From: a virus
Taxonomy: Duplodnaviria > Heunggongvirae > Uroviricota > Caudoviricetes
Virus record (IMG/VR): IMGVR_UViG_2541047926_000005
Span: 1-12,549 of that record
Strand: one strand, 5' to 3'
DNA: 12,549 bases
Part shown: piece after piece, positions 3,610 through 12,549 of the stretch
Numbering within the stretch: the first letter of the stretch is position 1
Layout of the letters: the number at the start of each line of letters is the position of its first letter
Made by a program: the position numbers and the translations under genes
The notes under the pieces: generated by a model
Databases searched by the model: none
Seen by the model: the letters and a program-made list of their open reading frames with translations, nothing else
What the model was told of the DNA's origin: nothing

Positions 3610-4185
3610 TCACCCATCTTGCTGCGGTGCTACTATTGAAAAGTACTCACACCCTTTAGCCCAAATAGTTTTGATAGTTGTCCAACTGACTGGAACCTTG
3701 ATTTCGATTCTTCCGCTGCCGTCACAAGTTTCGCAATCATCATCACCAAAGCATTCCGGGCAGCTTATAAACGTAGTTTCTGAAAATTCACCGGATAGCA
3801 CACCCTTAGCGCCGTTCTCAGCGGTTAGTTTCTTCGGCACTATAACCCAACCATCCGGAGTTACCGGAGAATTGCCATTTATATCGAAGTTTGGCTCTGC
3901 GTCCTGAACCAGGAGGATGTAACCATTCTTGGCAGTATCAAGTTCTAACGCCTCGGTGACGGTACCGAAATAGCGATTACCTAAATCCGCATCACAAGTG
4001 CTTACATCAATGGAAACCTCCATGCCTTCGATTAATTCTGGCAAGTTGTAAGTTTGGCTTACAGGTTCTGCTCCCAGTGATGCCAGTGCAATTCGTGCCA
4101 GTTCCATTTGTTCGCCACGAGTAAGCCCGTTTTCAAGCGGATTTTTAATGAACAATTCAATACGTTCTTTGGTAATAGTGGTCAT
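3610..4185 (-). CDS. Hypothetical protein with C-terminal DnaJ-type zinc-finger motif (CxxCxG ... CxxCxGxG)
   Basis: 191-aa ORF; SD AAGGA 7 nt upstream of ATG 4185; only 10 nt downstream of the preceding gene's stop; C-terminal CPECFGDDDCETCDGSG. Confidence 0.7.
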   Translation of the reverse strand: MTTITKERIELFIKNPLENGLTRGEQMELARIALASLGAEPVSQTYNLPELIEGMEVSIDVSTCDADLGNRYFGTVTEALELDTAKNGYILLVQDAEPNFDINGNSPVTPDGWVIVPKKLTAENGAKGVLSGEFSETTFISCPECFGDDDCETCDGSGRIEIKVPVSWTTIKTIWAKGCEYFSIVAPQQDG

Positions 4186-4195
4186 TTGTTAGTCC

Positions 4196-5056
4196 TTAAA
4201 CTGCTAGTTGCAATTGCATTTCAAAGCGGTCGCGTTGTTCACAATACGCAAGAGAACCAGGGCTATTGTGTGCCTCAATCCGTTCTACCATTAATGCTGC
4301 GCGTGTCTCTTTACTTGCAGGTGCATAAGCCCCAGACCAGGCTTTATCAATACCGATGTTTCGAGCGACGTTCGTACTATCTGCGCTGGCTAAGGGTAAT
4401 TTTGTGAATATCAGCGGATTTAACATGCGCAATCCATGTAGTTTCGTAACCGGCTGACCATGCCCATCAACAATGTGACGAATCAGGTCTTTCATTCTGG
4501 CTACCGCAAGAGTTGGGCGCTTTACGTCATAGTCGCCACAACTACCGATAGCCACTCGCGGAAACTCATTGCACAAATGAATAAATCGCTCGTCACTTTC
4601 ATTCATGTGCCACACTGGAACGCCAGCTAGTTTTCCGTGAGCCCGGACTTCAGCCAGGAAAGCATCGGTGGCTGGGGTGTCAACACGGATGCTGTCGCGC
4701 AAGATGAAAAATGCATTGAGCATTCCAGTCTCTGGCACTTCATCCTGATGCTTCTCATACGCATCAAGAGCCTTCATCATCTCATGTCCGAATGGTTGAG
4801 GGTGCTCAGCCTTCAGCCCAGCATTCTCCGCCGCCAGCGCTGAAAACTTCTCGTGTGCCAACTTAACAGCCGAATCAGCCTGCTTAATTGACTCAATCGC
4901 TTTCTGGTGGTCTTCGTACAGAGCCGAAATCTTGGCCTCCGCTTCAGCAAATTTACGCACCAGATATTCAGCGTTTGTTTCGTTAACCTTTAAATCTCGT
5001 GGGAAGCATTTACCTTTCAGAAAACCATCCATCTCAATTAGTGACATTTGTTTCAT
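4196..5056 (-). CDS. Hypothetical protein: N-terminal coiled-coil-like region plus C-terminal globular domain
   Basis: 286-aa ORF; ATG 5056 overlaps the upstream stop (ATGA); GGAG upstream; helical heptad-like N-terminus ([30 protein letters not shown]); C-terminal motifs AIGSCGDYD and LHGLRMLNP, unrecognised. Confidence 0.7.
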
Positions 5057-5547: not shown

Positions 5548-5931
5548 TTAGAAGGGAATTGAATCGTCGTATTCAGGATGGTTTTGATGATTGCTACTTT
5601 GTTGCTGTTGGCTGTTTCCTGAAGTTGCAAATCCAATCTTTGCATTCAGTAATTCAAGAGTGATTGATTGACCATTTTGCCCCTGATAAACATCAACCCT
5701 GATGTTTTCTCCGGTAATTTCCACAATGCCACCTTCAACAAGAACACTACGGTAGTAATCCGCTTGCGCTCCCGGCTTGGCAAATACAACGGCGCTGTAG
5801 TTTGTCCATTCTTTCTTTTTTGTCTGGCGATCGTAATACTGAACGCCAGCACGGATGTTGAATCCGATATTTTCCCCGGCCTGAAACTCTCTTGCGGGCT
5901 TGTTTAGTCTTACAGTAATCGAATGTGCCAT
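5548..5931 (-). CDS. ssb: Phage single-stranded DNA-binding protein (SSB-like)
   Basis: 127-aa product from ATG 5931 (TAATG overlap with the erf stop); OB-fold-like core (SAVVFAKPGAQADYYRSVLVEGGIVEITG), Gln/Ser-rich linker, and acidic C-terminal tip DDSIPF matching the SSB tail consensus DDDIPF. The ORF-track N-terminal extension to 6021 overlaps erf and is rejected. Confidence 0.7.
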   Translation of the reverse strand: MAHSITVRLNKPAREFQAGENIGFNIRAGVQYYDRQTKKKEWTNYSAVVFAKPGAQADYYRSVLVEGGIVEITGENIRVDVYQGQNGQSITLELLNAKIGFATSGNSQQQQSSNHQNHPEYDDSIPF

Positions 5932-6536
5932 TAAGCAGCCGCTCCTTCTAATTCGTCTCGTCTGATGTTGTAAACGTCCTGCGCTTTGTGCTGCTCCGGT
6001 GTTCCTTCGAGCATCTTCCACGCTTTGGCGAACGCCTGTTTAAGCTCTTCCACGGTGTTTTTCTGCATTGCTGCGTCAGTGAATGCTTTTAGAACCTGTT
6101 CAGGTGTAGGTGATGGTTTTGATTGCTTTGCTACTGCGTTCTGCTGATGTTTATGCTCGTCTGTATCTGCATCTTTCGCATCATCAATGCCGAACAAACT
6201 ATTGAGGCAATACTTGCGTGCATAAGAGCTTGTAGCTCCCGTAACTTGTGCAGAATCCATTCCTTTCTTGCTTTCTTCCTCTCGTGCAAGAGCGGTTGCC
6301 GTATGACTGTTTTCGCCATCGGTAATAGTTGCCGTGGCTTTCACGTAATACCGATCACCAATCAACACAACTTCATCGCTGATTGATAAAAACAGGCCAT
6401 TCAGTAACGGCTTAACGCCTTCAAGAATATCTTCGCAGCTTCTGTATTTATATTTACCGAATGAGTTGTACTGATTTTTTGGCGCGTTCAGATTCTCCTG
6501 AATAGCTGCCAGTCTTGCGTAAAATTCTTTGCTCAT
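5931..6536 (-). CDS. erf: Erf-family single-strand annealing recombinase
   Basis: 201-aa product from ATG 6536 (MSKEFYARLAAIQENLNAPKNQYNSFGKYKYRSCEDILEG ... GATSSYARKYCLNSLFGIDD), recognised as close to P22 Erf; the start at 6536 leaves a 10-nt gap to the upstream small ORF, whereas the 6566 start would overlap it. Confidence 0.85.
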   Translation of the reverse strand: MSKEFYARLAAIQENLNAPKNQYNSFGKYKYRSCEDILEGVKPLLNGLFLSISDEVVLIGDRYYVKATATITDGENSHTATALAREEESKKGMDSAQVTGATSSYARKYCLNSLFGIDDAKDADTDEHKHQQNAVAKQSKPSPTPEQVLKAFTDAAMQKNTVEELKQAFAKAWKMLEGTPEQHKAQDVYNIRRDELEGAAA

Positions 6537-6546
6537 ATGTTTGTTC

Positions 6547-6716
6547 TCAGAATGGACATGGCCCAAGGAAATAACGCTGGTTTAATACTTCGACTCGGGA
6601 CAAATTAAGGCATACCCGCATTCCTTCGCGGTCACCATTATGGCGATACCAGAGAGCTTTCTGCGTGTACATGCGTCTCTGTAACTTGCTCTCCTTCACT
6701 GTGGTTGCAAGTGACA
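6547..6716 (-). CDS. Small hypothetical protein (56 aa) upstream of erf (arf-position ORF)
   Basis: Strong SD AAGGAG 6 nt upstream of ATG 6716; ends 10 nt before the erf start; overlaps an alternative 52-aa frame (6640-6796) that is ATGA-coupled to the kil stop. Confidence 0.4.
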
Positions 6717-6792: not shown

Positions 6793-6945
6793 TCATTTCC
6801 TGCGATACCACGGAAGGTTGATAGCTGATTTCATCGCTTTATTTGCTTCAAGCCACATTTTGGAATCACCAATAAATCTGGCTATTACTGCTTTGTTTTG
6901 TGCTGCACGAAGCATCTGGTGATTGATGGTTATTTCATTGCGCAT
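6793..6945 (-). CDS. kil: Kil-like small protein (host-killing / cell-division inhibitor family, tentative)
   Basis: Unlisted 54-aa ORF MRNEITINHQMLRAAQNKAVIARFIGDSKMWLEANKAMKSAINLPWYRRK; SD GGAGG 5 nt upstream; start overlaps the 3' end of cIII as kil does in lambda; central FIGD-KM motif resembles lambda Kil as I recall it. Confidence 0.55.
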   Translation of the reverse strand: MRNEITINHQMLRAAQNKAVIARFIGDSKMWLEANKAMKSAINLPWYRRK

Positions 6946-7064
6946 AACGCCTCCAGTTGTTTCTTTGCTGCTCTGATTAATTGTTTAACTCGGCGTGATA
7001 ATTCAGATTCGAGCGGGTAGAAAGCGGACATGACGCCGCTACCCGCGAGCTGAAAGTGCATCAT
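6930..7064 (-). CDS. cIII: CIII-like protein (FtsH inhibitor that stabilises CII)
   Basis: 44-aa product MMHFQLAGSGVMSAFYPLESELSRRVKQLIRAAKKQLEALCAMK from ATG 7064 with SD AAGGAG 6 nt upstream; amphipathic core ESELSRRVKQLIRAAKKQLEAL parallels the lambda CIII core ESLLERITRKLRDGWKRLIDIL; the ORF-track 61-aa version has a spurious N-terminal extension. Confidence 0.75.
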   Translation of the reverse strand: MMHFQLAGSGVMSAFYPLESELSRRVKQLIRAAKKQLEALCAMK

Positions 7065-7139
7065 GGGTAACTCCTTATATTTGATTGCATAACGAAAATG
7101 CCTCTCGTGAAGCATTATTGGTATGCGGTAAAGCCGCGC

Positions 7140-8149: not shown

Positions 8150-8177
8150 CCAAAAATAAAGGCCGACTATGCGGCCT
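8150..8177 (-). terminator. Intrinsic terminator (stem AGGCCG/CGGCCT, 6-nt loop) plus UUUAUUUUU on minus strand, overlapping the stop codon of the 207-aa gene
   Basis: Plus strand CAAAAATAAAGGCCGACTATGCGGCCT; hairpin and U-tract fall immediately 3' of the 8167-8790 gene. Confidence 0.55.
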
Positions 8178-8790
8178 CGGAAGGAAGTCCAATCATCTTA
8201 TTCAAATCTTCTACCCGTAAAGCAGGAAGTGCTGTACTTGCTTTATCTGCTTCTTTTGGTAGCAACTCTTTGCTTTCAGGCCAAACCTCAATAAGTCGCT
8301 TAACTGTTGTGACTGAGTTTAAAGCAGCCCATACATTTGATTCGATATCCTTTTTCTTGGCTTCAAGTTTTTGTTGTAATGAGCAGATTTCATCAAACCT
8401 TTTTGTTATTTCGTGCTCTGCGTCAAACATGCATTTATCTTTTATCGGAGTAGGGAGAAATATATCTTCGCCGTTGCCGTCTTTCCCATATGAATGCCAT
8501 CCAACCCTTCTGCCAGATACAGTCAGATAAATTGAAGTAGAACGAAAATCGTATGAGTAAAATGAACATCCCATCTTGCCAAGTTCTTCACTTATAGCTA
8601 CCAACTTGGATGATAACTGATCCACTTCCTCAGTTTTCTTTTTACCGCCAAACGCAATAACTCTGGCGTCAAGTGCAAGCTGGTTCTTTAACTTTGTTAC
8701 TTCTTCAAGCTCAGTGAAAACCCCAGACTTAATTAAAGCGTTACGAGCGATTTTCTCTTTCATTCTCGTAGTTAAGCGGATTGATGACAT
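8167..8790 (-). CDS. Hypothetical soluble 207-aa protein with its own terminator (accessory gene in the ral/sieB region)
   Basis: ATG at 8790 with SD GAGAGG 7 nt upstream (ORF-track start at 8805 is a TTG inside the SD); charged coiled-coil-like termini; no TM segments; family not recognised. Confidence 0.7.
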   Translation of the reverse strand: MSSIRLTTRMKEKIARNALIKSGVFTELEEVTKLKNQLALDARVIAFGGKKKTEEVDQLSSKLVAISEELGKMGCSFYSYDFRSTSIYLTVSGRRVGWHSYGKDGNGEDIFLPTPIKDKCMFDAEHEITKRFDEICSLQQKLEAKKKDIESNVWAALNSVTTVKRLIEVWPESKELLPKEADKASTALPALRVEDLNKMIGLPSEAA

Positions 8791-8847
8791 ATTAATTCCT
8801 CTCAAATAAGTGGTTTGCTGCGAAAGTAAATACGCTTAAGTTACCTG

Positions 8848-9647: not shown

Positions 9648-11123
9648 GTGCTGAAGTATGACCCTGATCAGTTACGACAGGATTTGTCTTCACAGGGCGG
9701 CGTAAACTTAGTTAATGGTGCCGTTAGTTATGATAATCTGGGTAGTGAATACGGGCTGAATCTCATAGGTGAATATGCCGAAATATCAAATTTACGGGAT
9801 GTAGCACCATCTGTAGGTGATAAGGTCATGGTGAAGGAGCACACCACAGGACGTGGTTTGTTAGGTGGTGGTGTTTTCGTAGCTGTATCAGGGAATTACA
9901 CAGATGATGATGGAGTATTTATTTCGTCTGCTTCCCCATCTGTATATTGGGTACGAAGTGGCGCAGGTAGTCATGTTATAATTGAATGGTTCGGTGGCAA
10001 ATCTGAAGATCAGAGTTTAGATCATTCTCCTATCCTGGCTAACGCACAGTTATATGAAGGTCGATCGATAGAGTTTCAGTACGGAAGCTACTACTTTACA
10101 CCTCCATGCGTCATCAAGCCGTCTATGCATTTCATCGGCAGCGGTGGCGCTAAAACATTCTGGCGAAACAAAAATATAAATGCGGACGCCACGGTGTTCT
10201 TCGCCAACACCGGGAGTGCATCTTCTTGGGCTGAAAATACAGTGTTCGAGCGCATTCATTTTAGTAATGACTCCAGCTCTACCCCCAGCAATGCGGCTAT
10301 ATCACTGCAACATGCGAGTCTATTTAAATTTGATAAGTGCGGTTTTTACAAGGCACCGATTTACGCATCAGATTTACACTGGGTTACTTGGAATGGCTGC
10401 GTATTAATCGACAGTATGACCACAATTAACGAGGCCAGTGTATCACCAGCATTTCCTATTAACGAGGGTCCAGCATTTATCGACTGCTATATGGTCAGAT
10501 CCCCTATAGATATAACTGATGTTGCCGATTTGAGACTAGTAGGCACTTCGATGTTTTACGGACCTTACGGCATAAAGTCAACGACACACCGACCTTTAGA
10601 TTCAGGGGCGGATTCTCGGGGATTACCGGTATTTATAACTAATAGCGTAATTGACAATATTGACGGTTATTGCTTGGACCTTAACAGAGTGGCGGTAGGA
10701 ACTATCACAAACAGCCTGTTCTCTGGAGGAAGAGTGTCAGGGACTCCAGCAATACGTGCAACAGAGGTTTTGGGACTTAGCTTTAACGCCAATGTTATCC
10801 ATTTCGCCGGTCAGGAATGCATGTACCTCTATGACGTGCAGAATATATTAATGGGTAATAACCAATTCAGTAGTTGCAACGGTTATGCAATAAAAGCAGA
10901 ATATTGTCGTAATGTTACTGTGAATGGTAATTTCTTCGGTAACCAGAAAGTCACTGGCGGATGGAATACATGCACTGGAGGGATAAACTTTAACACCAAC
11001 GATAACCTTGCATGGATAATAACTGGCAACACTTTCGTAAGTGTACCCGGAGTTGTAGGGCAGACAGGGTCTGGAAGAACAGTTTATACTGCCACAGGTA
11101 ATTCAGGTTTGTCAGATAATTAA
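9648..11123 (+). CDS. Tailspike-like right-handed beta-helix protein lacking a head-binding domain (putative polysaccharide-degrading or -binding)
   Basis: 491-aa ORF with GTG start at 9648 (SD GAAGG 5 nt upstream); N-terminus LKYDPDQ matches the conserved junction motif of P22-family tailspikes as I recall it, and the upstream in-frame codons read A-N-V; body has beta-helix-like repeats (NVTVNGNFF, NILMGNNQF, LSFNANVIH, ITNSLFSGG); no signal peptide. Confidence 0.75.
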   Translation: MLKYDPDQLRQDLSSQGGVNLVNGAVSYDNLGSEYGLNLIGEYAEISNLRDVAPSVGDKVMVKEHTTGRGLLGGGVFVAVSGNYTDDDGVFISSASPSVYWVRSGAGSHVIIEWFGGKSEDQSLDHSPILANAQLYEGRSIEFQYGSYYFTPPCVIKPSMHFIGSGGAKTFWRNKNINADATVFFANTGSASSWAENTVFERIHFSNDSSSTPSNAAISLQHASLFKFDKCGFYKAPIYASDLHWVTWNGCVLIDSMTTINEASVSPAFPINEGPAFIDCYMVRSPIDITDVADLRLVGTSMFYGPYGIKSTTHRPLDSGADSRGLPVFITNSVIDNIDGYCLDLNRVAVGTITNSLFSGGRVSGTPAIRATEVLGLSFNANVIHFAGQECMYLYDVQNILMGNNQFSSCNGYAIKAEYCRNVTVNGNFFGNQKVTGGWNTCTGGINFNTNDNLAWIITGNTFVSVPGVVGQTGSGRTVYTATGNSGLSDN

Positions 11124-11196: not shown

Positions 11197-12549
11197 TTAA
11201 GCTCTCTTTATTAGAACTGGAGATATAATGATGATTGGTAGTGCTTTTACCAGATAAACCAGCGGGAGAACTAACTCAGCTCTACATGAAAAAATGAATC
11301 CTGGTAAAATGGCCATTGCAGATACAATAAGCATCTTATTTCCTGATGACAGCAACTTATTTATCAATAGAATAATTGACAATGAATACGCTATCATTAC
11401 CATTGGCCCAAATGCACCGCCAAGAATCATGGATTCAAGCGGAAGTGATGATGATAAAGCTATTCCAGATGAATGACTGCCAAGGGCAATATCCGTATAT
11501 ACTTGCGATATCGGCGTGACACCGTTTATATTAAATCCAAGCAGGTTAAAGAATTGTAATATAATATCTTCCTGATTAAAATTGTGGGAATACCAAAAGT
11601 CAGATATATTGAAAGTACTTTGCAACCCAGATATTATTGATGCTATAGAATCAAGAACAATTAGTAAATAGCTAAAGAAATACATGTTGTATCCTTCTCT
11701 ATAATATGAAACCAAAGAAAGTACAACAAATAGAGATGATATTACTACAGGGCTTGTTATTTTTCTGAAGTATTTCTTTGCATTATTTATATCAACAAAC
11801 ATCATTATTATAAAAATTGAAATCAAGGAAGAAAAAGCCTTCCCTCTAATGCCTATAATTATGTCTGAGAACAATATGAATATTGCAATTGCTGTAATTA
11901 TCTTACTCCTTGAAAAGGCTATAGCCATGAGCGATAAAATTACTGAAAACCCACTTAAGAACCTTATTGCGAAAGGCACTGACGACACAAGATCGTCGTT
12001 TGATAGATATATTGCAAGATGCCCAAGACCTGAATTTGATATGAATGAGTAATATGTGTATATTTTATATAGTTGAGCTATCGCTACAAACAAAAATATA
12101 AATACAAAAAAATTACTTAGCCTTAGATTAATTAAAGGATTTGTTTTTGTTTGTCTGAATGACTTTCCAAGAAAGTAAATAACCATAGATGAAAGAACGA
12201 TGCATAGCATCATTCCTTTAAATGCAGGAGTGGAGTCGTTTACCATAAACAAATAACAGGCAGGTATTCCAAGAAGTAATGAATAACAAAAGAAATATAT
12301 AGTTCCAATAGATAATTCATTCATTCTTTTTATATACGATAACACCAAGCATGAAGTATACAGTGGAGCGATAAAACAAAACAATATATCATATACACCT
12401 GATTGAACCCCAGATATCATTAGCAATGATATAAATACGATTATAGACAGTAGAGCAAACATAAGAAATATATACGGCAATGTATTAACTATCTGGTTTG
12501 GAGTCCATATATAACCAGTGTTACTGCCTGAAATGTATTTTCTAATCAT
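11197..12549 (-). CDS. Polytopic inner-membrane protein, GtrC/Wzy-like (candidate O-antigen modifying enzyme: serotype-specific glycosyltransferase or O-antigen polymerase)
   Basis: 450-aa ORF with many hydrophobic helices; markedly AT-rich codon usage unlike the rest of the window; starts at the last base of the window (ATG 12549-12547), so the true start may lie beyond; convergent with the tailspike-like gene. Confidence 0.75.
   Translation of the reverse strand: MIRKYISGSNTGYIWTPNQIVNTLPYIFLMFALLSIIVFISLLMISGVQSGVYDILFCFIAPLYTSCLVLSYIKRMNELSIGTIYFFCYSLLLGIPACYLFMVNDSTPAFKGMMLCIVLSSMVIYFLGKSFRQTKTNPLINLRLSNFFVFIFLFVAIAQLYKIYTYYSFISNSGLGHLAIYLSNDDLVSSVPFAIRFLSGFSVILSLMAIAFSRSKIITAIAIFILFSDIIIGIRGKAFSSLISIFIIMMFVDINNAKKYFRKITSPVVISSLFVVLSLVSYYREGYNMYFFSYLLIVLDSIASIISGLQSTFNISDFWYSHNFNQEDIILQFFNLLGFNINGVTPISQVYTDIALGSHSSGIALSSSLPLESMILGGAFGPMVMIAYSLSIILLINKLLSSGNKMLIVSAMAILPGFIFSCRAELVLPLVYLVKALPIIIISPVLIKRA

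What the first reader, a model, noticed from the sequence alone, without database searches (positions are those of the whole stretch)
3610..4185. 191-aa protein with a single DnaJ-type zinc centre (CPECFG-x3-CETCDGSG) near the C-terminus
Two adjacent CxxCxG(xG) motifs separated by three Asp residues form the signature of one zinc-binding unit of the DnaJ cysteine-rich domain type, attached to an otherwise acidic, unrecognised N-terminal region. Small zinc-finger proteins in phage early regions often act as protein-binding inhibitors of host factors.
Basis: seen in the sequence. Interest (0 to 1): 0.45.

Follow-up and report, generated by a model that had tools for sequence, protein, structure and literature searches.

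The report
Prophage accessory protein with zinc-knuckle tail
This is a very common, intact early gene of lambda/P22-like prophages whose tail end is a small portable domain probably pinned by one zinc ion; databases wrongly call it "chaperone DnaJ", and its real job is still unknown.

Summary
A 191-aa ORF (3610-4185, minus strand) carries C142-PE-C145-FGDDD-C151-ET-C154-DGSG. It is not a DnaJ chaperone.

It is a three-module mosaic protein of the EaA/Ea22 accessory class. It sits in the early-left operon of a defective lambdoid prophage at ybhC/att-lambda.
- Residues 1-45 match the P22 EaA N-terminus.
- Residues ~41-103 are a middle cassette shared with HK620 HkaE and mEp460 gp27.
- At a GNSPVTPDGW junction, a ~75-aa C-terminal cassette replaces the DUF551 tail of those phages.

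The C-terminal cassette has no Pfam or NCBIfam model. It occurs in at least 1312 protein clusters (50% identity) behind many different N-termini, and also alone (79-87 aa). It is under purifying selection (dN/dS 0.07-0.25).

AlphaFold2 (pLDDT 75) gives helix, beta-hairpin, helix, with the two CxxC knuckles at the hairpin tip. Of 188 distinct module sequences, 178 keep all four Cys, 7 keep three, and 3 distant ones replace the loop with a short acidic turn.

The Cys4 site is therefore most likely a structural zinc clip on a conserved scaffold (LTAENGAK..L.GEF ... W..IK.I). Similarity to the DnaJ cysteine-rich domain is at motif level only. The partner and function are not known.

The parts
3610..4185 (-). 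Complete ORF, 191 aa plus stop codon: mosaic EaA/Ea22-class accessory protein
   Evidence: ORF list; translation; PHROG 60 at E=1.4e-41. The exact sequence is on >=1000 contigs, named 'molecular chaperone DnaJ' or 'hypothetical protein'.
4193..4197 (-). Shine-Dalgarno AAGGA, 7 nt before the ATG; overlaps the stop codon (4196-4198) of the upstream gene
   Evidence: Read directly from the sequence. Supports M1 as the start rather than the M55 start used in some RefSeq records.
4066..4185 (-). N-terminal module, about aa 1-40: EaA-type N-terminus, two predicted helices
   Evidence: tblastn: 90-93% identity to the P22 eaa product over aa 1-42. PHROGs 3323, 660 and 10451 match aa 1-46. Helices 6-14 and 23-36 in a low-confidence model.
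3877..4065 (-). Middle cassette, about aa 41-103 (EPVSQTYNLPELIEGMEVSIDVSTCDADLGNRYFGTVTEALELDTAKNGYILLVQDAEPNF...); fold unresolved
   Evidence: Shared nearly unchanged with HK620 HkaE, mEp460 gp27 and BIS08P22 EaA, and with Ea22-, DUF550- and DUF551-named E. coli proteins. AF2 pLDDT is about 30 here.
3847..3876 (-). Junction linker GNSPVTPDGW (aa 104-113), the point where alternative C-terminal cassettes are exchanged
   Evidence: The same linker is followed by a DUF551-type tail in HkaE and mEp460 gp27, by a 'VPIEATEEM...AAAPQQE'-type tail in BIS08P22 EaA and phi80 gp52, and by the Cys4 module here.
3634..3846 (-). C-terminal portable module (aa 114-184): helix (122-130), strand (133-139), Cys4 loop, strand (159-165), helix (168-184)
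   Evidence: 1312 cluster representatives at E<=1e-3. Standalone forms of 79 and 87 aa. AF2 mean pLDDT 75. dN/dS 0.07-0.25. Invariant across distant members: A122, K127, G132, E133, F134, four Cys, W168, K172.
3712..3762 (-). Two zinc-knuckle motifs, C142PEC145FG-DDD-C151ETC154DGSG (aa 142-158), at the tip of the beta-hairpin
   Evidence: Sequence. Four Cys present in 178 of 188 distinct module sequences; spacer of 4-9 residues; loop absent in 3 distant homologues.

Best explanation
The ORF is a real, intact gene of the early-left (pL-type) operon of a lambdoid/P22-like prophage. It encodes a three-cassette mosaic protein of the EaA/Ea22 accessory class.

Its C-terminal ~75 residues form a small, self-contained, acidic domain: helix, beta-hairpin, helix. 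The tip of the hairpin carries two CxxC knuckles that together most probably chelate one Zn2+ in a tetrahedral Cys4 site. That site is structural. It clips the hairpin of a domain too small to have much hydrophobic core. It is an embellishment of an older scaffold defined by P..LTAENGAK..L.GEF and W..IK.I(W/Y).

The domain is a portable 'head' that recombination at the GNSPV.PDGW linker places behind many different N-terminal modules: EaA helices, Ea22 coiled coil, dATP/dGTP pyrophosphohydrolase, DUF551, Lar.

The most likely activity is binding a host or phage protein early after infection or induction, as proposed for other acidic Ea22-family C-terminal domains. It is not chaperone, nucleic-acid-binding or catalytic activity.

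Shown: gene integrity, mosaic architecture, domain portability, Cys conservation, purifying selection, predicted secondary structure. Inferred: zinc binding, structural role of the site, protein-binding function.
For: Gene and context:
- ORF with a good Shine-Dalgarno sequence.
- Operon context: abc2, ssb, erf, kil, cIII; xis and int downstream (for the same genes as annotated in IAI1).
- No terminator between this gene and its neighbours.
- The exact protein occurs on >=1000 contigs.

Mosaicism:
- P22 EaA N-terminus.
- HkaE is 96.5% identical over residues 1-114 and then continues as a DUF551-type tail.
- mEp460 gp27 and BIS08P22 EaA carry alternative tails at the same linker.

Portability:
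- 1312 representative proteins carry the module, at lengths 125-442 aa.
- Fusion partners among 144 representatives: dATP/dGTP pyrophosphohydrolase 10, DUF551 8, Ead_Ea22 7, Lar 2.
- Standalone proteins of 79 and 87 aa; N-terminal position in P. stutzeri phage pAN gp47.

Cys site:
- Four Cys invariant in Escherichia, Serratia, Pseudomonas and Vibrio phage homologues at 35-48% identity.
- 178 of 188 distinct sequences keep all four; spacer varies from 4 to 9.

Fold: AF2 mean pLDDT 75 with the knuckles between two strands; the same secondary structure appears in the independent full-length run.

Selection: dN/dS 0.07-0.25.

Scaffold older than the clip: Cys-less homologues in a Flavobacteriales MAG, a Nitrosovibrio prophage and a viral contig keep LTAE(N/D)G.K..L.GEF and W..IK.I.

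Acidic character: 14 D+E against 7 K+R in residues 101-191. This matches the published observation that Ea22-family C-terminal domains are portable and acidic (PMC10834534).
Against: - No metal was measured, and I could not read model coordinates to check Cys geometry.
- A spacer of only 4-9 residues between the knuckles is shorter than in classical zinc ribbons or DnaJ.
- Seven variants with three Cys and three with none show the site is not essential to the fold.
- No partner, phenotype or literature report exists for this module. 'Protein-binding head' therefore rests on analogy alone.
Confidence: 0.5

Rival explanations
1. It is a genuine DnaJ-type co-chaperone fragment. The Cys-rich unit would bind unfolded client proteins or modulate DnaK/DnaJ, for example in phage replication, as the RefSeq name 'molecular chaperone DnaJ' implies.
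For: RefSeq, GenBank and UniRef name it 'molecular chaperone DnaJ'. The second knuckle is a full CxxCxGxG. hhalign aligns the knuckles to E. coli DnaJ CR repeats 3-4 with 57% probability. In one distant prophage (L089), a J-domain-like ORF with an HPD motif lies two genes upstream of a module homologue.
Against: No J domain, G/F region or DnaJ C-terminal domain: Pfam and NCBIfam give no hit at E<=0.1 and E<=1. There are two repeats, not four. PDB profile search gives DnaJ CR E=0.42, no better than a RING finger. The aligned DnaJ repeats 3 and 4 belong to different zinc centres in DnaJ (established structure knowledge). The J-domain neighbour is unique among 177 sequences scanned. Cys-less homologues keep the scaffold.
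Confidence: 0.06
2. The module is a nucleic-acid-binding zinc ribbon acting as a small transcription or replication regulator, in the manner of TraR/Orf73, Ogr/Delta or Com.
For: Cys4 hairpins are common in phage regulators. The gene neighbourhood repeatedly includes a TraR/DksA-type zinc finger gene: E. coli IAI1, P. stutzeri phage pAN and a Logan contig.
Against: The module is strongly acidic (14 D+E against 7 K+R), and the inter-knuckle loop is DDD/DDE. The invariant residues are not basic apart from K127 and K172. There is no similarity to TraR/DksA or other zinc-ribbon families in Pfam or PDB searches. Zinc-free homologues retain the conserved motifs.
Confidence: 0.08
3. The cysteines are redox-active (a thiol-disulfide switch or isomerase, as reported for plant DnaJ-like zinc-finger proteins), or they hold an Fe-S cluster rather than zinc.
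For: Two CxxC motifs is also the signature of thiol-disulfide oxidoreductases. Plant single-unit DnaJ-like zinc-finger proteins are described as having such activities (own knowledge; papers surfaced). Ea22-family proteins have been linked to oxidative-stress-dependent prophage induction (PMC10834534).
Against: There is no thioredoxin-like fold in the model. The CxxCxGxG context and a hairpin-tip location are typical of structural zinc. Nothing in the sequence distinguishes this reading, and no data were obtainable here.
Confidence: 0.06
4. The 191-aa ORF is an accidental fusion or decaying remnant: a truncated EaA gene fused to a separate 137-aa gene, with no function for the whole.
For: PGAP in several complete genomes annotates aa 1-46 as an 'incomplete' pseudogene fragment. 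It then calls a 137-aa CDS from M55, or calls nothing at all. The surrounding prophage is defective: the early-left operon abuts a truncated tailspike. The full-length AF2 model is poor.
Against: The ORF is uninterrupted and has a proper Shine-Dalgarno sequence at M1; the only AG-rich stretch before M55 (GAAGG) ends 1 nt before that ATG. Many records call the 191-aa protein whole. The exact sequence is on >=1000 contigs. The same N-terminus plus middle cassette is intact in functional phages such as HK620. The module is under purifying selection.
Confidence: 0.06

Closest known systems
P22 EaA / lambda Ea22 family of mosaic early-left ('exo-xis region') accessory proteins; closest relatives are HK620 HkaE and mEp460 gp27
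   Same: Same operon position between the recombination genes and xis/int. N-terminus 90% identical to P22 EaA. 96.5% identical to HkaE over residues 1-114. Same build of variable N-terminus plus exchangeable, acidic, portable C-terminal domain as described for Ea22 (PMC10834534 and PMC7093339). Sibling proteins carry the identical C-module behind the Ead_Ea22 coiled coil.
   Different: This protein has no Ead_Ea22 (PF13935) coiled coil itself. Its C-terminal cassette is neither the lambda Ea22 CTD nor DUF551. I found no mention of a Cys4 or zinc module in the Ea22 papers I read.
DnaJ (Hsp40) central cysteine-rich domain, Pfam PF00684
   Same: CxxCxGxG-type knuckles next to beta-strands. Weak profile alignment to DnaJ repeats 3-4. 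The database name is derived from this resemblance.
   Different: Two repeats instead of four, so one putative Zn instead of two. Spacer of 4-9 residues. No significant Pfam or PDB profile match. No J domain, G/F region or C-terminal domains. The knuckles are embedded in an unrelated helix-hairpin-helix scaffold that also exists without them.
Bacillus subtilis anti-TRAP (RtpA): a 53-aa protein with one DnaJ-CR-like Zn(Cys)4 unit that inhibits TRAP by direct binding (own knowledge)
   Same: A single zinc unit made of two neighbouring CxxC(xGxG) motifs flanked by strands.
Partial DnaJ central domain (two CXXCXGXG repeats) inserted in the DNA polymerase of HMO-2011-type marine phages
   Same: A phage protein in which a two-repeat DnaJ-like Cys motif is inserted into an unrelated host domain (PMC9038755).
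   Different: Different carrier protein (family A DNA polymerase) and different phage group. No sequence comparison was made here.
Lambda Ea8.5 homeodomain/zinc-finger protein (same genome region in lambda)
   Same: A small zinc-binding protein encoded between exo and xis (cited in PMC7093339 and PMC10834534).
   Different: PDB sequence searches at E<=10 returned no Ea8.5-homologue structures. The fold prediction here is helix-hairpin-helix, not a homeodomain.

Membership tests
Type I DnaJ/Hsp40 ('molecular chaperone DnaJ', the RefSeq name) | N-terminal J domain with HPD motif (PF00226) | tested here: not met
   No Pfam hit at E<=0.1 and no NCBIfam hit at E<=1. No HPD tripeptide in the sequence.
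Type I DnaJ/Hsp40 ('molecular chaperone DnaJ', the RefSeq name) | Cysteine-rich domain with four CxxCxGxG repeats forming two zinc centres (PF00684) | tested here: not met
   Only two CxxC motifs. PF00684 not hit. DnaJ CR chain 1exk scores E=7.3 with phmmer and 0.42 with the profile. hhalign probability 57%.
Type I DnaJ/Hsp40 ('molecular chaperone DnaJ', the RefSeq name) | G/F-rich linker and C-terminal beta-sandwich client-binding domains (PF01556) | tested here: not met
   No Pfam hit. The sequence shows no G/F-rich stretch.
Single-unit DnaJ-CR-like zinc knuckle (anti-TRAP-like) | Two CxxCxGxG motifs close in sequence, flanked by beta-strands | tested here: met
   CPECFG (CxxCxG only) and CETCDGSG (full motif) between predicted strands 133-139 and 159-165. 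The second motif has G/G at the two Gly positions in 150 of 178 sequences, and the last G is kept in most of the rest. The first-motif G is present in 155 of 178.
Single-unit DnaJ-CR-like zinc knuckle (anti-TRAP-like) | All four Cys conserved among homologues | tested here: met
   178 of 188 distinct module sequences, including Serratia, Pseudomonas and Vibrio phage homologues. Exceptions: 7 with three Cys and 3 distant ones with none.
Single-unit DnaJ-CR-like zinc knuckle (anti-TRAP-like) | Significant sequence or structure similarity to a characterised member | tested here: inconclusive
Single-unit DnaJ-CR-like zinc knuckle (anti-TRAP-like) | One Zn2+ bound by the four Cys | not testable with these tools
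   Needs metal analysis or an experimental structure.
EaA/Ea22-class mosaic accessory proteins of lambdoid and P22-like phages | Encoded in the early-left operon between the recombination genes and xis/int | tested here: met
   Order on the minus strand: cIII, kil, erf, ssb, abc2, 286-aa gene, this gene, 94-aa gene, xis, int, with ybhC beyond. The same position is seen in E. coli IAI1 and FORC 064 prophages.
EaA/Ea22-class mosaic accessory proteins of lambdoid and P22-like phages | Sequence homology to named family members | tested here: met
   PHROG 60 at E=1.4e-41. 90-93% identity to P22 EaA over aa 1-42, 96.5% to HK620 HkaE over aa 1-114, and hits annotated 'Ea22' and 'EaA protein'.
EaA/Ea22-class mosaic accessory proteins of lambdoid and P22-like phages | Ead_Ea22 coiled-coil signature (PF13935 / IPR025153) | tested here: not met
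   Absent from this protein. Present in sibling proteins that carry the same middle and C-terminal cassettes.

The most novel reading that the evidence does not exclude
The C-terminal cassette represents an uncurated, widespread domain family: helix, zinc-clipped hairpin, helix, with the core motif LTAENGAK..L.GEF ... W..IK.I. On this reading it is a dedicated effector head of temperate-phage early operons. It would bind and neutralise a specific conserved host protein (a defence, repair or lysis-lysogeny factor), and phages would shuffle it between delivery or oligomerisation modules. It would then be a new anti-host effector domain, not a chaperone fragment.
Probability: 0.2. Interest if true: 0.55.

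Novelty: new member of a known kind. Interest (0 to 1): 0.3.

Why it matters
Three practical points follow.

1. The name 'molecular chaperone DnaJ' attached to thousands of E. coli, Shigella and Salmonella prophage proteins is a misannotation. PGAP also handles the ORF inconsistently: whole, split, or dropped.

2. The C-terminal cassette is a well-defined domain with no Pfam or NCBIfam model. It is present in over a thousand protein clusters across Gammaproteobacteria and beyond, and is under purifying selection. That makes it a clean target for family curation and for a small structural and biochemical study. Natural zinc-free variants are available as controls.

3. It adds a further exchangeable C-terminal head to the Ea22/EaA mosaic system. 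Members of that system influence the lysis-lysogeny outcome in lambda and Stx phages, but no partner is known.

None of this overturns current understanding. It is a tidy piece of phage 'dark matter', not a surprise.

Tried and rejected
- Pfam, NCBIfam and PADLOC scans of the protein: no hit. Pfam on a standalone and a Cys-less module gave only sub-threshold noise.
- PDB sequence searches with the single protein and with a profile: nothing significant. DnaJ CR and XIAP RING appear at E 0.2-7.
- Full-length AF2 model: pLDDT 45, with the middle cassette unresolved. It was not used for fold search.
- The representative search and the first viral-contig scan returned only close (>=68% identity) homologues in their visible lists. 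Divergent and Cys-less members were found only after re-querying with divergent sequences.
- A J-domain association was considered after finding one J-like neighbour in L089. It was rejected as systematic because no other of the 177 sequences scanned has one.
- Literature searches for a description of this module found none: Ea22, EaA, DUF550/551, DnaJ-like zinc in prophages, CXXCXGXG in phages. PMC7271347 was not held.
- Gene-neighbourhood look-ups of standalone homologues gave short contigs or only the already known TraR-like and primase neighbours.
Full report
**1. What is in the sequence**

The ORF listed at 3610..4185 lies on the minus strand, starts with ATG and encodes 191 aa. Translation gives Cys at positions 64, 142, 145, 151, 154 and 179. 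I checked the four Cys codons on the raw sequence.

The protein is acidic, with 31 D+E against 14 K+R. An AAGGA Shine-Dalgarno sequence lies 7 nt upstream of the ATG. The upstream gene's stop codon is 10 nt away, so the gene looks translationally linked to its neighbour. The consensus scan found no terminator-like site on the coding strand between this gene and its neighbours. The minus-strand terminator-like sites lie further downstream, at 2962-2942, 2931-2912 and 2735-2716.

The pattern C..C-x3-9-C..C occurs once in the six-frame translation of the window. Composition-matched shuffles give 0.09 per window. The motif alone is therefore only mildly improbable, and the case for it rests on conservation (section 4).

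**2. Where it sits**

The window begins in ybhC (the 427-aa product of ORF 1-1284 minus is the gene annotated ybhC at the same junction). On the minus strand it then carries a lambda-type integrase and excisionase (same genes annotated), a 94-aa gene, the target, and a 286-aa gene. After these come abc2 (anti-RecBCD), ssb and erf, then kil and cIII, and then DUF2528 and Nmad5 genes. An N-terminally truncated tailspike and a Wzy-like membrane ORF follow.

This is the early-left (pL-type) operon of a lambdoid/P22-like prophage at the lambda attachment site. The prophage appears defective. The DNA is 97-98% identical, in patches, to HK97, HK106 and related phages. The identical gene occurs in 40 complete E. 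coli genomes at full length, and parts of it occur in 1577 of 5426 genomes.

**3. The protein is a mosaic of three cassettes**

tblastn against phage genomes shows the following.
- Residues 1-42 are 90-93% identical to the N-terminus of P22 EaA.
- Residues 1-114 are 96.5% identical to HK620 HkaE.
- Residues ~38-137 match 'EaA' proteins of mEp460, HK629, 1720a-02 and others.
- Residues ~102-189 match proteins of Klebsiella, Enterobacter and Salmonella phages, some annotated 'Ea22'.

PHROG 60 (unknown function) matches at 1.4e-41.

Translating the relatives shows where the cassettes join.
- HkaE and mEp460 gp27 share the N-terminal and middle parts up to GNSPVTPDGW, then continue as a DUF551-type tail.
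- BIS08P22 EaA and phi80 gp52 continue from the same linker into a 'VPIEATEEM...AAAPQQE'-type tail.
- The target continues into the Cys-containing cassette.

The alignment of full-length relatives shows the middle-plus-C-terminal pair behind at least five unrelated N-termini. The 'unrecognised N-terminal region' is therefore a recognisable EaA/HkaE-type region. The architecture matches the published picture of Ea22-family proteins: variable N-terminus with portable, acidic, exchangeable C-terminal domains (PMC10834534; PMC7093339).

**4. The C-terminal cassette is an autonomous, widespread, selected domain**

- Distribution. An exhaustive HMMER search with residues 101-191 found 1312 cluster representatives at E<=1e-3 and 251 at E<=1e-30. 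Lengths range from 125 to 442 aa, and the module is usually but not always C-terminal.
- Fusion partners. Among 144 representatives, the Pfam-recognisable partners are dATP/dGTP pyrophosphohydrolase (10), DUF551 (8), Ead_Ea22 (7), Lar (2) and DUF3850/ASCH (1 each). Most partners have no Pfam domain.
- Standalone and other placements. Standalone versions of 79 and 87 aa exist. In P. stutzeri phage pAN the module is N-terminal.
- Selection. Pairwise Nei-Gojobori estimates against 38 viral-contig homologues give dN/dS of 0.07-0.25 once dS exceeds 0.1.
- No curated model. No Pfam, NCBIfam or PADLOC model matches.

**5. Conservation of the cysteines**

All 264 proteins from the first two searches have the four Cys, but all of those are close homologues. 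Divergent homologues at 35-48% identity also keep all four: Serratia phage OS31 gp05, P. stutzeri phage pAN gp47, Vibrio phage D93 gp108 and metagenomic proteins.

I then re-queried with divergent sequences and pooled everything into 188 distinct module sequences.
- 178 have four Cys, 7 have three, and 3 have none.
- The spacer between the two CxxC pairs is 4 (16 sequences), 5 (143), 6 (1), 7 (1), 8 (6) or 9 (11) residues.
- The Gly of the first knuckle (CxxCxG) is present in 155 of 178.
- The second knuckle has G/G at the two Gly positions of CxxCxGxG in 150 of 178. The last G is kept in most of the rest.

The three Cys-less homologues come from a Flavobacteriales MAG (where the module ends a ~589-aa ORF), a Nitrosovibrio prophage and a viral contig. 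They replace the knuckle loop with a short acidic turn. They retain P..LTAE(N/D)G.K..L.GEF upstream and (V/I)PW..IK.I downstream.

I read the Cys4 loop as an embellishment of an older scaffold.

**6. Structure**

AlphaFold2 on the module with a 33-sequence alignment gives mean pLDDT 75, and 77-88 over the core. In protein numbering the elements are helix 122-130, strand 133-139, the Cys loop 140-158, strand 159-165 and helix 168-184. The independent full-length run reproduces these elements, but it is otherwise poor: pLDDT 45, with the middle cassette at about 30.

The two knuckles therefore sit side by side at the tip of one beta-hairpin. This is the arrangement expected for a single tetrahedral Zn(Cys)4 site. 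I could not access the coordinates to measure Cys-Cys distances.

**7. Is it 'DnaJ-type'?**

RefSeq, GenBank and UniRef call the protein 'molecular chaperone DnaJ'. PGAP is inconsistent. It sometimes annotates the whole 191-aa protein. In other genomes it annotates a pseudogene fragment (aa 1-46) plus a 137-aa CDS from M55, or the fragment alone.

None of the defining DnaJ features is present: no J domain, no G/F region, no C-terminal domains, and only two Cys repeats.

Sequence similarity to the DnaJ cysteine-rich domain is not significant.
- phmmer E=7.3; profile E=0.42, comparable to a RING finger at 0.21.
- hhalign gives 57% probability over 29 columns and aligns the knuckles to DnaJ repeats 3 and 4. 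By established knowledge of the DnaJ CR structure, those repeats belong to different zinc centres.

Two-repeat 'partial DnaJ central domains' inserted in unrelated phage proteins are already described for HMO-2011-type phage DNA polymerases (PMC9038755).

Conclusion: the resemblance to DnaJ is real at the level of the motif. Family membership is not demonstrated, and the chaperone name is wrong.

**8. Mechanism**

- Shown: an intact, expressed-looking gene in an early operon; a portable acidic ~75-aa domain under purifying selection; four nearly invariant Cys at a hairpin tip; a conserved non-Cys core (A122, K127, G132-E133-F134, W168, K172).
- Inferred: the four Cys bind one structural zinc that stabilises a very small domain. 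The domain acts as a protein-binding head displayed on interchangeable N-terminal modules, in line with what has been proposed for Ea22 C-terminal domains. Ea22 is reported to favour lysogeny by an unknown partner (PMC7093339, PMC10834534).
- Neighbourhood. The only recurring association I saw is with the exo-xis-type block: a TraR/Orf73-like gene, recombination genes and a primase. A J-domain-like neighbour in one distant prophage is unique among 177 sequences scanned. I treat it as coincidence.
- Rival readings. The acidic composition argues against nucleic-acid binding. Redox or Fe-S roles cannot be excluded without experiments.

**9. Novelty and verdict**

The protein itself is catalogued many times over, under a misleading automated name. 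The gene class (EaA/Ea22 mosaics) and the kind of motif (a single DnaJ-CR-like zinc unit) are both known.

Three things are not in the curated databases or in the literature I could search:
- the C-terminal cassette defined as an autonomous domain family;
- its conserved core motif;
- its zinc-free relatives.

I rate it a new member of a known kind. Interest is modest at 0.3. It is a useful correction and a clean target for domain curation and a small biochemical study, but it is not surprising.

Noticed in passing
window 4196-5056 (-) and 8167-8805 (-): The 286-aa gene immediately upstream looks chimeric. It has an N-terminal coiled-coil/EaA-like part (PHROGs 614, 14548). Its C-terminal half matches only the middle of the phage 'queuine tRNA-ribosyltransferase' (TGT/DpdA-like) PHROG 887 (aa 116-283), with no Pfam TGT hit. 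A Nucleotide-modification-associated domain 5 (Nmad5) gene lies in the same operon. These may be remnants of a DNA-modification module.
   Followed up: partly
window 3610-4185 (-); L001 9001-9576; L002 3001-3576: RefSeq/PGAP treats the same uninterrupted ORF in three ways. It calls a whole 191-aa 'molecular chaperone DnaJ', or a pseudogene fragment (aa 1-46) plus a 137-aa CDS from M55, or the fragment alone with the rest unannotated.
   Followed up: yes
window 3847-3876 (-); L007 2501-3034; L173 1186-1938; L174 1081-1551; L006 1949-2668: The linker GNSPV(T/I)P(D/E)G(W/Y) is a cassette-exchange point. At least three unrelated C-terminal tails follow it in different phages: DUF551-type, 'VPIEATEEM...AAAPQQE'-type, and the Cys4 module. 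Both non-DUF551 tails begin 'VP..(L/A)T.E' and end near 'AAAPQQE', which hints at a distant relationship that I did not test.
   Followed up: partly
L096 4001-4159; L097 4001-4147 (same as L098); L105 3001-3147: Three distant homologues of the module lack all cysteines. The knuckle loop is replaced by a short acidic turn while the flanking motifs are kept. In L096 the module ends a ~589-aa ORF whose N-terminus looks like a YqaJ/lambda-exonuclease-type domain; that resemblance is my own reading of the sequence and was not tested.
   Followed up: partly
L089 2660-3316 (+): In a Candidatus Reddybacter prophage, an ORF two genes upstream of the module homologue ends in a J-domain-like segment, KKLYRKASSRTHPDNGG. 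Pfam DnaJ gives E=3.7e-5, below the gathering score. No comparable neighbour exists in the other 176 sequences scanned.
   Followed up: yes
window 9648-11123 (+) and 11197-12549 (-): A tailspike ORF lacks its N-terminal head-binding part; it matches PHROG 7173 from profile position 106 onward. It directly follows the early-left genes. Next to it is a polytopic membrane ORF with a weak O-antigen polymerase Wzy match (E=0.002, below cutoff) that runs off the window. No immunity, replication, lysis or head genes lie between, so the prophage looks like a deletion remnant.
   Followed up: no
window 6793-6945 (-) and 6930-7115 (-): Small ORFs encode lambda Kil (Pfam E=1.7e-20) and cIII (E=1.8e-28). 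This confirms the pL-operon identity of the region.
   Followed up: yes
window 5548-6021 (-) versus 5931-6566 (-): The ssb ORF as listed starts at an upstream GTG and overlaps the end of erf by 91 nt. The SSB-like sequence begins around the internal 'MAHSITVRLNKP'. The listed start is therefore probably an artefact of the longest-ORF rule.
   Followed up: no
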